Assembly (NCBI GenBank): GCA_030141605.1
Contig: JAQGDQ010000054.1
Coordinates: forward strand, 620,001-684,000
DNA: 64,000 nt
Reading direction: 5' to 3'
DNA from: Tubiluchus corallicola
Lineage: Eukaryota > Animalia > Priapulida
The notes below the pieces were generated by a model that was given only the letters and a program-made list of their open reading frames with translations, had not been told where the DNA came from and did not search any database. Positions 20,801 through 26,800 of this stretch are shown piece by piece (position 1 is the first letter of the stretch; each line of letters begins with the position of its first letter). Both the position numbers and the translations under genes were made by a program.

Positions 20801-23800
20801 TTATTACATAGTAACGTACATATTATTACATACCGACGCTCAGTTTTATTAATGTTTTAGGAAGGTGTTTATTTAATGGATGCACGTCAACATTATTTTA
20901 ATGAAACTTGGTATGTAATACACAATCACGAAAACATAAAAACCTCTTTATACTGCCTACTTTGGGACCGAAAAAGTTGGTGTTATAGCGAGTTTGGCAT
21001 TACAAGGAGGTGCATTAATACACGCATGTCTATGCAAATGTAAATATTTTGTTCGATTAGAAATTTGGGTGTTAAGAGAGGTTGCATTATAAGGGGAGTG
21101 GTGTTATAACAAGGTTTGACTGTAGTTATATCTTTGGAATTTGGCTCAATACGAGCTCATGAACTAAAAGTTGCCTTCAGACCACAATGTGAGCAGTGTG
21201 GAGCATTAGTTTTTGGTTACAAGATTCATTTTACAGAAGCTAGGCTTGGGACCTACGCACCTGTAAAAATGTATGTAGGCACAAAGCATTGATTGATTTA
21301 TGTCTTGAAGATTCCAGATGTAATTAGAACTTACTTGAAGGTTATTCCCAGGTCACACTCTATATCTATGAACCCAGTAAAACATCTGATAGTTGTTATT
21401 GTTAGCATTGCTAATTATCAAGTGAACAAATCATACATTTGGCCTTGACAGTTTTCAGCAATAACTCCAAAAACAAAATTTTAACCAATTTCTATCTTAC
21501 TCTTACAGAGGAAGTTTTAAGCAGCAGCCATGCATTGTGGTGGTCTCCAAATGGACAGCACATAGTCTTTGCAACTTTCAATGATTCTGAAGTCAAAACG
21601 TTTGGCTTCCCAGTATACGGACATGAAAACCCATACTCTTCCATTGTCAATATTAGGTATCCAAAGGTAAGCATGGTGGATGCTTAAGTTACTATAAAAT
21701 GCTTTATTTAGTTTTAATTTTTTGCTTCATTGATGTTGCACTGAAATCACAACCAAAAAATAGACCCACATTGACCTCACTAAGGAATAATAACAAATTC
21801 CAAAACTATATAAAATTAGTTTAAATTAAGAGTGAATGCTTAGAAATCATTTGCCACTTTGCATTAGACTTGAATGCATTGTATGTAATTGAATGACGTA
21901 ACAAAGGACAATGATGTAATAATTAGTGACTAATTAAAAAAGAGATATTCTTTTGACCCCACCTGTACTTTGTCAATGTACAGTATTATCTCCTGTATCT
22001 GCTAATGAGATGAACATAAAATTACCTAAAGCTCTTCATGAGATATTTCTACTAATTCATATGTGTGCAACAAACAGAGCAAAATTGCACCAACATTTTA
22101 CATTAGTTTCCCATACAAAAAGTCAGTGGCTTGAAATACCACAAGTATGGCAAAAATAATACACTTTGAAATTCTCTTGTTGGTTACTCTTAACATCGAC
22201 AGCTGATCCAAATTTTGATGAGACAATACTGCCAGCGTCTGCCTTGATTTGATTACAATATACGTGCATTCCACTCATGTTTTCCTAGAGCATGAAATAA
22301 AATGCATGTTCACCTGTTTAAATACATACAACCATTAAATTTTGTTGCTTCTAAGCCACACTTTTTTTGTTTTAGGCAGGAGAAAAGAACCCAATTTTCA
22401 AGCTGACCATATTTAATGTTAAACAGCCATCTAGTCAAATAGTGTTGAAACCTCCAGTGGAGATTCAAAGTTTGCCGTAAGTAAAACAATGTTATAATAA
22501 GGAATCAGTGGACAAAAAATCCTTAGTTACCTCTTTATTTTCACTTCCACATACTTTTCAAACTCTTCAATCAAATTCGAAAGTTTAGCAGTTACACTAT
22601 AATCATAAAAAGCTGGTTTTCCTTTGAGTTTTTTATTTTTCTAGTGAATACTACCTAGGCAGAGTTAAGTGGATAGATGATAGCAGAATTTCTGTCATAT
22701 GGATGAACAGGCACCAGAATTTCTCCATTTTTTCAACCTGCATTGCACAAAGTGGCCAGTGCAATAAGGTATAATAATTATTTTACTTCAATGATCTCGT
22801 AACTCACACAGTTACCTTTAGGTTATCATTAGGTGTTTTGCTTCAGCAGTTACAAAACACCAAATGTACATATTAAGATATTACAAATACGTACCAGTGA
22901 GCTAGAATATGCTTAATTAATTTTGTCTTTTACAATGATAACTGATTTTAAAACTGAGTGTACAGAGTGCTTTAGTGTGTAAATTATACATGTACCACCT
23001 GTTTTTCTCATTTTAGCATTTCACCTATCAAGAGAAAAAAGGCTGGGTTGAAGTGACACAGAATCCAATTTTTGATAAAAATTTCAACTTTTTTTATGTT
23101 CTCCCACAATTAGAAGGCAATTATGGAGACTTCATGCATGTTACACAAGTGTCAATGAATGTAAGTGTTACTAAATAATGTAAAGTGTTGCATATTATGA
23201 ATGTGTTGTTTTGATCATAGCTAAAACTTAACAAAGCCAAAATGCAGTTTTAATATGTATAAAAATATTATTAAACTATCGGCGTGACAAGTACTAGTTT
23301 TTAACTGTGCAATACAAAATAGAAATATTAGTATGGCCTACATTATCATATTACTTTTCATGTGACTAAAAGCATAAATCATCTATATAAATAAGTGTGT
23401 GAATAATAACATAATGAAAATAGCTGCCATATCTTAAGTCTCTCATCGTAATATACTACATTTTATCTTCAGTGGACCACTGGCTTGTCTGAATCTACAG
23501 TTAAATAAAAAATGCAAAAAATGCTACAAAATTGATAAACGTAAAGTTATAAAAATAGGTTTAGCTATCCTAAAAAGTAGAATACGAAGTAAAAAATGGG
23601 AAAAAATCATACAAAGCAGGGAATGTCTTACATGAATATCACAGTTCTGTCCATACTTCTTGACGACGTTGATTATGGACCGTTATAGCAGCAGTCGACT
23701 TCTTGATTAATTTATTGTTGTTATTCAATATAGCTGCAGGAGAATTGATTGCTGGCTTGTGAACCCTCGGGCTACTAGTAGCAACTGGCACATTACGATC

Positions 23801-26800
23801 TCTTGTATATTTGGCATTGCTTCGACTCCTCCTAGATGAATCACTTAATTGGCTTCTAGCTAGACTATTGATTGATTCCGCTTGGGCAAGCGGAGCAGAT
23901 TTTCTCTCTACAGATGTTCCACTGCTATACCCACTTTGGCGCTTGCTACTATGAACTTTTCCCTGATGGGGTTTGATAGGTCTGTCATCTACCTGAACAT
24001 TAGTGTAAGGTATATCCTTCAATTGTTCTTGGCTATAGCCCGAAGGATCGACCAATTCATACCGAATTTGTTGACGAACTTCTTCAGGAATGCTTGGAGA
24101 TTTCGAGCGATGTTTCCTGTTTCGATGTGTCTGACTGTCCATTCTAGGAGGTGGATTTTTAGACAAACTTCGAACAACAGCTGCTTGCGGGCCTTGAGTT
24201 TGAGCAGCAATGGCAGCCTCTTGCTGTAATTTAATGGCTTCCCATTGAGCACCAGAATCAACAAGCACGTCACTGCTTTCATTGCGTCGTGGCCTGTGCC
24301 TGCGGCGCCTGCGAGACACTGATGTTTCCGATTCACTACCACTACTTATCCCACTTCGTTCATGTGACCGTCTTCTGCGTCTGTTAGACAGCGAGACATC
24401 ACTATCACTACCAGACCCAGCCTTTTTACGACTGCGATGCCTCCTGCGACGACCAGCTTCTGATTCGCTACCAGACTGATTGTGCTTACTGTGTTGAAAC
24501 ACTGGAGAGCGTCCCCTCTTAGAATGGCGCTCAGATGGTGGAGAGCTTTTTTGTGAATATAAACCCCGAGACAAATCGGATTTTTCATCCCAGGGTTTAA
24601 CCATTTCTTTTGGTTCTGTTATCACAGAGTATGGCGAGGCAATGGTCGGCTCTGGGGGCTTTACAGGTACAGGTTTTGGTGCTACAACAGTGGTGGGCTT
24701 TCTTGCATTAACGCCAATATCATTAGTAGATGTTCTTCGAGCATAGCGTTTGCTTGGCAATCTGATTACTTGTGGTGCTGGACGGTTTAGCTGTCGATGG
24801 TACTCCTTTGCTTCAGTTTCGGTTCTGCCACTATATCGGTGATTTGATCCAAGACTAAGGAGCTTTCCAGGGCCTGTAGGAACGTCACGCACTTGAGAGA
24901 GTCGGAAAAATGCATGATGCTCTATTGTACACTTCCACAGGTGTTTGCAAGCTTGACGTGTAGAGCAATCAAACCCATGTACAGTTTCACTATTAGTTTT
25001 ATCAATAACTCTAATGAAAAACTGCCTATCTTTGAATGTAACCTTCGTAATTCTTGGCCAGAAGTAATTTCTAATTTTCACCTTATCTTTTAGGATGATT
25101 ATTCCAGTAGGAGTAAGTCCAAGCATGTAATCAATATTATCTTGGCCCAGGACAAAGTGCAAGTCAACTCCATACATTTCCAACCATTTCGCCTTATTTA
25201 AAAAGTTCATTTCAGCAATGCAGGGAACTTGACCAACACATTTTTTATGCAACTCTGCAATTTTTTCTTCCAGCCATTCTGTTTGGCACGGAACAAATCT
25301 AAACTCCGACACATAACCATCAGAATGTCTGTGTGGGTCATAATCGCCTAGTTCAGACTGCAAAGCATATCCTCCTAGTTCAGCTGCCTCTTCTTCGTTA
25401 CAGGGTATTCTTCCTCGCAGTATGTCCTGCTTCACTTGGAGGAAGAACTGATAACGAGTTATCTCCTCAAACAGCTTGCTAGGGTCAGCTACATAAAATT
25501 TCACACTAAAATAAAATACAAGTGGTTGTTGTATTTGAATTTGCTGGCATATTCTTTTGTCAGGCTCCAACCAGTATATCTGATTAGATTTATCCACATA
25601 CCTCAAGCCGAAATAGTCTTTTTCCAATAAGTTTAGATGCCGATATACACGATTAAGGACTGCTTCACCACGGGTAGATGGCTGGATTTCAAATTTAAGG
25701 TCAGTATCATCAAGCAGTAGCACTTGACAAGGAATGTCTACATTTTCATTGTTTCCACCACCGCAACAAACCATTTTGGCAGGTCTGGACAAGTGTTGCT
25801 CAAGAAGTATACACTTTTGTTTTTAGATAAATTGTTCCAGTGGTAAAAATGGTGTCACAGATCGCTGCTCTTCATTCTGAAAAAAAACAAACATTTTTTA
25901 ATTTGTAGAGTAGCCGAGAATTTCCTTTAACTCGAGGAACATTCGATGTAACATCTATAGTCGGATACAATGCTCAGCGACAGTTAGTGTTTTACCTTGC
26001 AACTGCTGATCACAAAGAGCGTGCTAGATGGCGACACCTATATACCGTAAGAGTAGAGGGATCCATGAATGCAAAACGCAGCACATGTTTGAGCTGTGCA
26101 CTTGATGAGAATTGCAATTACTATTCTGCCTACGTAAGCAGTGATGGAGAATATTATATTCTATACTGCCAAGGTCCAAGAGTCCCTAGATGGACTTTGC
26201 ACAGTATTGAGGAGCCAGATAAAGGTACGACACACCACTTTCATCAGTTATGCGCAATAATGGTTCTACATTCCAAAGAAGCAAAGCAATACAATTTTGG
26301 TTGTAAAGACGTTTGATCACAAATAAAAACCTAACAATATTGCAAAAAATGAAAATAAATAGAGTTCTTTGAAATTTGGCAAAAACAACATAAATTTACA
26401 GGATAGAAGTTTTTCAACAGCACTCAGTGTGTAATGGACAATGTATGCGGCTGGTGCCGTGCAAGGTTTTTATTTACAAAGACACAATTTAGCTTCTTCA
26501 CAGTAGCAATATTGGAACATTGTAAAATAATCATTGTACAGTCAGCAAAATTACAAGAAGAAATTTATTATTTTCAGAATATCCTACTCGTTTCATTCAC
26601 TCTCAAAGCACATTTAACAATTCTCAAAGGCAAATGAATTTTACTAAATAGTTTGATTTTTCAGTAAAATTTAGTTGCTCTTGAAATGTGCCTTGAGAGT
26701 GCATGAAATGTGCCAACTATTTTGTACATAATAAATTTCTTTTCATAACTAAACCAAAGAAGTGTTTTTTAATATAATGCATATTAATATATAATATGAA

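What the first reader, a model, noticed from the sequence alone, without database searches (positions are those of the whole stretch)
23161..25908. Intronless EPB41L4A nested antisense and filling almost a whole intron of the DPP gene
Seen: a 2136-nt uninterrupted CDS on the - strand inside a 2748-nt intron. A likely ATTAAA signal (plus-strand TTTAAT 23249-23254) lies under 100 nt from the host donor and the 5' exon boundary about 30 nt from the host acceptor. All three neighbouring genes are intron-rich. Known: vertebrate EPB41L4A is a many-exon gene. Inference: an old, still intact retrogene that may have replaced its parent, with transcription potentially interfering with or coupled to the host.
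Basis: partly seen in the sequence, partly recalled or inferred. Interest (0 to 1): 0.78.

Follow-up and report, generated by a model that had tools for sequence, protein, structure and literature searches.

The report
Retrogene filling a peptidase gene's intron
In a probable priapulid worm, the membrane-scaffold gene EPB41L4A, split into many exons in other animals, is one unbroken, selection-maintained reading frame lying backwards inside an intron of a peptidase gene; it is likely a reverse-transcribed mRNA copy that replaced its original, a known kind of event.

Summary
Observation confirmed. A 2136-nt intronless frame (25774-23639, minus) encodes a full-length EPB41L4A ortholog, sister to Priapulus caudatus (100/100). 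It lies in the 2748-nt GT-AG intron 23161-25908 of a DPP4/DPP6-family gene with 20 mapped coding exons; an RNA-type contig splices across it. A diverged run shows 12 synonymous against 3 amino-acid changes, so the frame is under selection. In deep DNA contigs no second EPB41L4A copy appears at 80% identity; the only other match is a yurt-type exon. In P. caudatus the two genes lie on different scaffolds. One correction: the gene is probably not wholly nested. A minus-strand acceptor at 25876 ranks 1st or 2nd of 3643 and leaves only 32 nt of host intron, so the first exon likely lies beyond the next host exon. Best reading: a parent-replacing retrogene (0.6). Parent loss is not proven (no genome held), the P. 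caudatus exon structure is unknown, and coupling to the host is untested. Nested antisense intronless genes and orphan retrogenes are well described. The scan noted the same architecture before, in this genome (CEP290 in PLPBP) and in sharks.

The parts
23639..25774 (-). EPB41L4A (band 4.1-like 4A / NBL4) coding sequence, 711 aa, no intron; FERM N/M/C (aa 18-295), FA (304-347), Ser/Arg-rich tail, C-terminal ...WTEL
25775..25876 (-). Predicted 5' UTR part of the same exon (102 nt), with a 6-codon upstream ORF at 25875-25855 and an in-frame stop at 25823-25825, so no upstream exon can extend the protein
   Evidence: boundary predicted, no RNA joint seen
25877..25898 (-). Predicted splice acceptor of the nested gene (T-rich tract + CAG), back to back with the host acceptor on the other strand
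   Evidence: rank 1 (22-nt model) or 2 (14-nt model) of 3643 minus-strand AGs
23230..23638 (-). Predicted 3' UTR (end estimated from the signal)
   Evidence: X5 contig covers 23268-23537 with 25 other letters and 7 gaps
23249..23254 (-). ATTAAA, predicted polyadenylation signal
   Evidence: only canonical hexamer on this strand in 23161-23640; use not shown
23161..25908 (+). Host intron (11th of the mapped introns), GT-AG, phase 0, 2748 nt; median host intron 709 nt
23017..23160 (+). Host exon upstream of the intron (144 nt)
25909..26224 (+). Host exon downstream of the intron (316 nt, the longest); the nested gene's primary transcript would cross it antisense
8803..35398 (+). Host gene, DPP4/FAP/DPP6/DPP10 family, type II membrane protein; 20 mapped coding exons, first exon not found; GWSYGG, Asp and His motifs present
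11606..11959 (-). Fragment resembling a non-LTR retrotransposon endonuclease in an earlier host intron; suggests the genome has held a reverse-transcriptase source
   Evidence: Pfam PF14529 E 8e-6, just under the curated cut-off

Best explanation
This is an intact, selection-maintained EPB41L4A gene with no coding intron, lying antisense in a DPP intron; it is likely a reverse-transcribed mRNA copy that inserted here and likely replaced its many-exon parent. Steps: (1, inferred) a spliced mRNA was copied by retrotransposon enzymes and inserted backwards into the host intron, which removed all coding introns at once. (2, predicted) It is transcribed from a promoter and non-coding first exon that lie beyond host exon 25909-26224, in a later host intron or further on; the transcript splices into the acceptor at 25876 and ends after ATTAAA at 23249. 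(3, shown) The host removes the whole unit as an ordinary intron. (4, inferred) Once the copy covered the parent's job, the parent decayed. (5, from family knowledge) The protein links membrane proteins and lipids to cortical actin through its FERM domain; the conserved TEL end would suit a PDZ partner (recalled motif, untested). Convergent transcription would favour expression in different cells or at different times, but nothing here shows coupling.
For: Orthology: best hit P. caudatus band 4.1-like 4, 60% over 100%; sisters at 100/100 inside the EPB41L4A clade, FERM branch 0.23 vs 0.15, not flagged long. Many-exon ancestry: human gene has at least 20 exons (PMC7672090, passages); 50 of 120 hits carry an isoform label (counted by eye); 5 of 5 isoform pairs from 4 arthropods differ by internal indels inside the span of this frame. 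Genome keeps introns: host 19 mapped introns; a FERM paralog in the same DNA has an exon flanked by AG and GT exactly where 6 of 6 checked yurt-type genes have introns and where this gene reads through. Selection: 15 listed X5 differences give 12 synonymous and 3 amino-acid changes, pN/pS about 0.08, binomial p 5e-6; FERM piece 6 and 0. Single copy: X1 depth 10.9-11.7 over the CDS, like the flanks; of 2 X2 records laid, one spans the whole CDS and the other is the paralog exon. Different place in a relative: P. caudatus DPP model is complete on a 708,848-nt scaffold, EPB41L4A on a 161,557-nt one. 5' end: acceptor rank 1 or 2 of 3643, alongside a real PXMP4 acceptor; the host strand has 12 A in 16 there, the most of 19 host introns. 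New 5' exons are the usual route for retrogenes (PMC4772013, passages). Expression, suggestive only: X5 holds a contig spliced across two DPP introns, so it holds cDNA, and has pieces on the nested 3' UTR and CDS.
Against: No poly(A) remnant or target-site duplication: best flanking match is 7 nt; expected for an old insertion, but it removes direct proof. The parent search is by DNA identity of 80% or more on contigs, not tBLASTn; a diverged parent could be missed. The exon structure of the P. caudatus ortholog could not be read; it has one model with no isoform label while its DPP has 2 and its BET 4, a weak hint that it may be intronless too. P. caudatus BET lies on a third scaffold (247,709), so neighbourhood cannot show which lineage moved. 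A 5' UTR intron with a bare CDS is also what intron loss in place by cDNA recombination leaves (established model, recalled). X5 is listed as 'DNA?' and contigs have no strand, so minus-strand transcription is not shown; the selection count rests on 15 of at least 21 differences, one piece at depth 2.6.
Confidence: 0.6

Rival explanations
1. The introns were lost first, at the old locus or in a priapulid ancestor, by recombination with cDNA, leaving the original 5' UTR intron; the compact gene then moved as DNA into the DPP intron, or was nested early and moved out in Priapulus. There was never a parent-copy pair at this site.
For: Predicted 5' UTR acceptor with a bare CDS; P. caudatus ortholog is collinear, of similar length (726 vs 711 aa) and has a single model; no insertion scars. 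Precedent for repeated translocation tied to intron loss: teleost hatching enzyme genes (PMC6385490, abstract), although those authors favour retrocopying.
Against: A DNA move would have had to carry the promoter and first exon across a host exon without breaking the host; the acceptor sits 32 nt from the host's own and could have been recruited from host intron sequence. Neighbours and a FERM paralog keep their introns.
Confidence: 0.22
2. An ordinary functional retrogene whose many-exon parent still exists elsewhere in the genome, too diverged to be caught; the two divide expression (for instance germ line against soma). The exon seen in X2 could be part of that parent.
For: Most retrogenes coexist with their parent (PMC4772013, passages). 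No genome was held. X2 record 2 matches 50 of 59 nt and is flanked by splice sites.
Against: That exon reads GQNPAQAE...HHVM (read by hand from the loose ends); PAQAE occurs in 11 of 16 yurt-type loci but in 2 of 103 parsed EPB41L4A-type proteins. A remote paralog's best exon was caught while no other exon was, which a closer parent would be unlikely to escape. Full-length conservation and a normal branch length fit a sole copy.
Confidence: 0.12
3. The acceptor at 25876 has no cis donor: the RNA starts close by and receives a spliced leader in trans, which would let a promoter-poor retrocopy be expressed from within one intron.
For: Very strong acceptor 102 nt before the ATG with no first exon identified; minus-strand donor candidates upstream are unremarkable.
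Against: One search found no paper reporting spliced-leader trans-splicing in priapulids (3 listed, none on priapulids); 5' UTR introns are common; the RNA would still have to begin inside or beyond the host exon.
Confidence: 0.05

Closest known systems
Orphan retrogenes (Ciomborowska et al., PMC3548309: 25 human cases, abstract and section 5 read; Carelli et al., PMC4772013: 10 families, passages read)
   Same: Single coding exon where orthologs have many; strong purifying selection; different genomic place from the ortholog; predicted new 5' exon.
   Different: Parent loss is not proven here; priapulid-like animal, not mammal or fly; the ancestor had about 20 or more exons; sits antisense in a host intron.
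Nested opposite-strand genes of Drosophila (Assis, PMC5174743, passages read)
   Same: Internal gene in a host intron on the other strand; nearly 10% of fly genes are nested, 71.3% on opposite strands, 37% of those internal genes intronless.
   Different: Internal genes there are typically small inserts in long introns; here the predicted exon fills about 96% of the intron, the gene is an old single-copy one, and its first exon likely lies outside, making it interleaved.
EPB41L4A / NBL4 (human; PMC7672090 and PMC13557372, passages read)
   Same: FERM + FA architecture, same clade; family role is linking membrane proteins to actin; reported Wnt/beta-catenin target.
   Different: Human gene has at least 20 exons; nesting in a DPP gene was not found in print.
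Teleost hatching enzyme genes (PMC6385490, abstract read)
   Same: An indispensable gene loses all introns as it changes place.
   Different: Those keep their promoter directly upstream and are not described as nested in the abstract.

Membership tests
EPB41L4A orthologs | FERM N, M, C plus FA domain | tested here: met
   4 of 4 Pfam families above cut-off
EPB41L4A orthologs | Groups with EPB41L4A, apart from EPB41L5/yurt | tested here: met
   29-row tree: inside the 26-row EPB41L4A side (100/100), sister to P. caudatus; 3 yurt-type rows outside. The yurt label is recalled from motifs.
Nested gene | Coding sequence inside an intron of another gene | tested here: met
Nested gene | Whole transcription unit inside that one intron | tested here: inconclusive
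   Predicted acceptor at 25876 leaves 32 nt, too little for promoter, exon and intron; no RNA joint seen
Retrogene | All ancestral coding introns absent | tested here: met
   Unbroken frame over the full ortholog length; many-exon orthologs
Retrogene | Located away from the parental locus | tested here: inconclusive
   Different scaffolds in P. caudatus, but BET is on a third, so direction is unknown
Retrogene | Poly(A) remnant and target-site duplication | tested here: not met
   None found; these decay in old copies, so this does not exclude membership
Retrogene | Intact frame under purifying selection | tested here: met
   12 synonymous vs 3 amino-acid changes
Retrogene | Transcribed on its own strand | tested here: inconclusive
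   Pieces in X5, which holds spliced cDNA; no strand, may be DNA
Orphan retrogene | Parent absent or dead in the same genome | tested here: inconclusive
   No second copy at 80% DNA identity in X1, X2, X3, X4; no tBLASTn possible
Orphan retrogene | Nearest relatives keep the many-exon gene | not testable with these tools
   P. caudatus DNA could not be fetched
Transcriptional-interference pair | Divergent or exclusive expression of host and internal gene | not testable with these tools
   Only contigs were served; no stranded reads

The most novel reading that the evidence does not exclude
This priapulid lineage went through a wave of long-mRNA retroposition in which ancient many-exon genes (EPB41L4A here, CEP290 in PLPBP elsewhere in the genome) moved into introns of other genes and replaced their parents; the essential insert then pinned its host intron in place while reverse transcription of partly spliced host RNA stripped the introns on either side. 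The host has 20 mapped core exons against 25 in human DPP6/DPP10 (PMC3973911, passages), and by my recall of human DPP4 exon sizes 4 of the 5 missing introns flank the nested intron.
Probability: 0.2. Interest if true: 0.68.

Novelty: new member of a known kind. Interest (0 to 1): 0.36.

Why it matters
As a single case it extends parent-replacing retroposition to an almost unstudied ecdysozoan branch and to a gene of 20 or more exons. The packing is unusually tight: two acceptors 32 nt apart on opposite strands and about 100 nt of free intron, which makes a neat test of how convergent genes share DNA. With the CEP290 case it raises a cheap genome-wide question: how many conserved genes of this animal are intron-dwelling retrocopies, and do they shape intron loss in their hosts?

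Tried and rejected
No whole genome was held, so no tBLASTn for a parent. Sequencing-run search listed 6 runs, no holder on record as RNA. X6 (RNA by guess) covers many host exons but has no cover of the nested CDS; absence in contigs is no evidence on expression. No joint or loose end at 25876 in X5 or X6, so the first exon was not found; the X5 loose end at 25536 is a fold-back of adjacent sequence. X4 shows single-base gaps in the CDS at depth about 5 that X2 (depth 184) and X1 do not support; taken as errors. The PXMP4 search (51 hits of 69 candidates) returned no named Priapulus protein. BET synteny was uninformative. Repeat search around the insertion gave only chance-level pairs. GC3 of the nested gene (0.33) and host (0.36) do not differ usefully. 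The host's first coding exon was not found. Assembly artefact, pseudogene and genome-wide intron loss were considered and rejected. Paper searches for the case itself found nothing relevant: EPB41L4A + intronless (3 papers), EPB41L4A + retrogene, priapul + retrogene, Priapulida + genome assembly + intron (15 of 17 listed), priapul + retrocopy terms (20 of 308 listed); listings only. No printed DPP exon-size table was found. No fold or complex job was run: the family is not in doubt.
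Full report
Observation. The minus strand carries one frame from ATG 25774 to stop 23639, 711 aa, with FERM N, M, C and FA domains. Of the 120 best hits listed, the first is Priapulus caudatus band 4.1-like protein 4, 60% identical over the full length, at 933 bits against 536 for the next; the animal is therefore probably a priapulid. In a tree of the FERM-FA part (26 EPB41L4A-type rows chosen from 121, plus 3 yurt-type rows) the two are sisters at 100/100 with branches 0.23 and 0.15. 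Identity to P. caudatus stays at 61-79% in each of the first six 100-residue blocks and both end in WTEL; 52 of 121 proteins end in TEL.

Host. The P. caudatus DPP6-like protein maps to 20 exons from 8803 to 35398 that join into an open 805-aa frame, 59% identical. It belongs to the DPP4/FAP/DPP6/DPP10 family and keeps GWSYGG and the Asp and His motifs, so it is likely an active peptidase (inference). The nested gene lies in the 11th mapped intron, 23161-25908. A contig of X6 splices across it, and a single X2 DNA contig spans it with host exons on both sides; X2 may be the window's own source.

Is it alive? X5, a diverged run, differs at 15 listed sites in two CDS pieces: 12 synonymous and 3 amino-acid changes, against 61 synonymous and 201 non-synonymous sites, pN/pS about 0.08. 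The table omits sites near contig ends (21 differences in all) and one piece is shallow. X5 is labelled DNA by guess but holds a contig spliced across two host introns, and it has pieces on the nested 3' UTR and CDS. That fits expression but shows no strand.

Were introns lost? Human EPB41L4A has at least 20 exons (PMC7672090, passages). Isoform pairs from shrimp, lobster, damselfly and locust differ by internal indels within the span of this frame, 5 of 5 pairs. The genome itself keeps introns: host 19 plus a micro-exon, PXMP4 3, BET at least 9 blocks. X2 also holds a FERM exon matching 25158-25216 at 50 of 59 nt, flanked by AG and GT at the same places as in 6 of 6 yurt-type genes checked; the nested gene reads through both places. 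So the loss is complete and gene-specific, the mark of an RNA intermediate.

Is there a parent? At 80% identity X1 depth over the CDS is flat at 10.9-11.7, and X2 lays two records only. The second has the PAQAE motif of 11 of 16 yurt-type loci, seen in 2 of 103 parsed EPB41L4A-type proteins, so it is likely the yurt paralog (label recalled). This favours a sole copy but is weaker than tBLASTn, which was not possible.

Did it move? In P. caudatus the complete DPP model (XP_014667249.1) is on a 708,848-nt scaffold and EPB41L4A (XP_014676313.1) on a 161,557-nt one, so the nesting is not shared. BET is on a third scaffold, so the direction of the move is open, and the exon count of the P. caudatus gene could not be read. 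No poly(A) remnant or target-site duplication survives.

How it is expressed. A weight matrix from the host's acceptors ranks 25876 first of 3643 minus-strand AGs (second with a shorter model, behind a real PXMP4 acceptor). It lies 102 nt before the ATG and 32 nt inside the host acceptor. An in-frame stop upstream means any first exon is non-coding for this protein. Thirty-two bases cannot hold a promoter, exon and intron, so the transcript likely starts beyond host exon 25909-26224 and crosses it antisense. The gene is then interleaved with its host, and only its CDS is intronless. The 3' end is predicted after ATTAAA at 23249. Most multi-exon mammalian retrogenes gained their new exons upstream (75-93%; PMC4772013, passages).

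Comparison. Orphan retrogenes are described in human and other mammals and are under strong purifying selection (PMC3548309 abstract and section 5; PMC4772013). Opposite-strand nesting with intronless internal genes is common in flies and is linked to expression divergence (PMC5174743, passages). Independent intronless orthologs in scattered animal lineages are also reported for Riox1 (PMC6006756, passages). Five searches found no paper on this case; no supplements were read, and retrocopy tables in them could list it. Earlier scan notes describe the same architecture for CEP290 in this genome and for RILPL2 and MROH1 in sharks; I did not check them.

Verdict. A real, intact EPB41L4A with no coding intron, likely a parent-replacing retrogene (0.6); intron loss followed by a DNA move (0.22), a surviving diverged parent (0.12) and trans-splicing (0.05) remain. 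New member of a known kind, interest 0.36.

Noticed in passing
window 23017-23160 and 25909-26224: The two host exons that flank the nested intron appear to be fusions of two and of four human DPP4 exons; 4 of 5 introns missing relative to human would then lie beside the nested gene. The count (20 vs 25 core exons) is; the positions are recalled and untested, and vertebrate gains are not excluded.
   Followed up: partly
window 29047-29058: 12-nt micro-exon (AG/GT flanked) in the host, included in an X6 contig; restores four residues present in P. caudatus.
   Followed up: yes
window 34251-34500: GC-AG intron in the host, supported by joints in X5 and X6.
   Followed up: yes
window 8803-35398: The host has a DPP6-like membrane-anchor exon but intact catalytic motifs, unlike the inactive vertebrate DPP6/DPP10.
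   Followed up: no
window 11606-12983: Broken non-LTR retrotransposon-like piece (endonuclease domain) antisense in an early host intron.
   Followed up: partly
window 31900-32600 and 20940-21050: High-copy repeats in host introns: summed contig depth about 10,000 and 500 in X1 against about 11 for single-copy DNA.
   Followed up: no
window 26551-26748: 65-nt inverted repeat (77% complementary, 68-nt spacer) in the host intron just upstream of the nested gene's predicted acceptor; may be a small transposon remnant.
   Followed up: no
window 38809-42875 (-) and 50424-61000 (+): PXMP4 (4 coding exons) and a BET bromodomain gene, head to head; PXMP4 is upstream of the nested gene on the same strand and is one candidate source of its first exon.
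   Followed up: partly
L004:5001-6230, L006 and L007:5001-6323: Yurt-type FERM genes with no intron across the FERM domain on 43-111 kb contigs, while L008-L016 have introns: intron loss recurs in this family.
   Followed up: no
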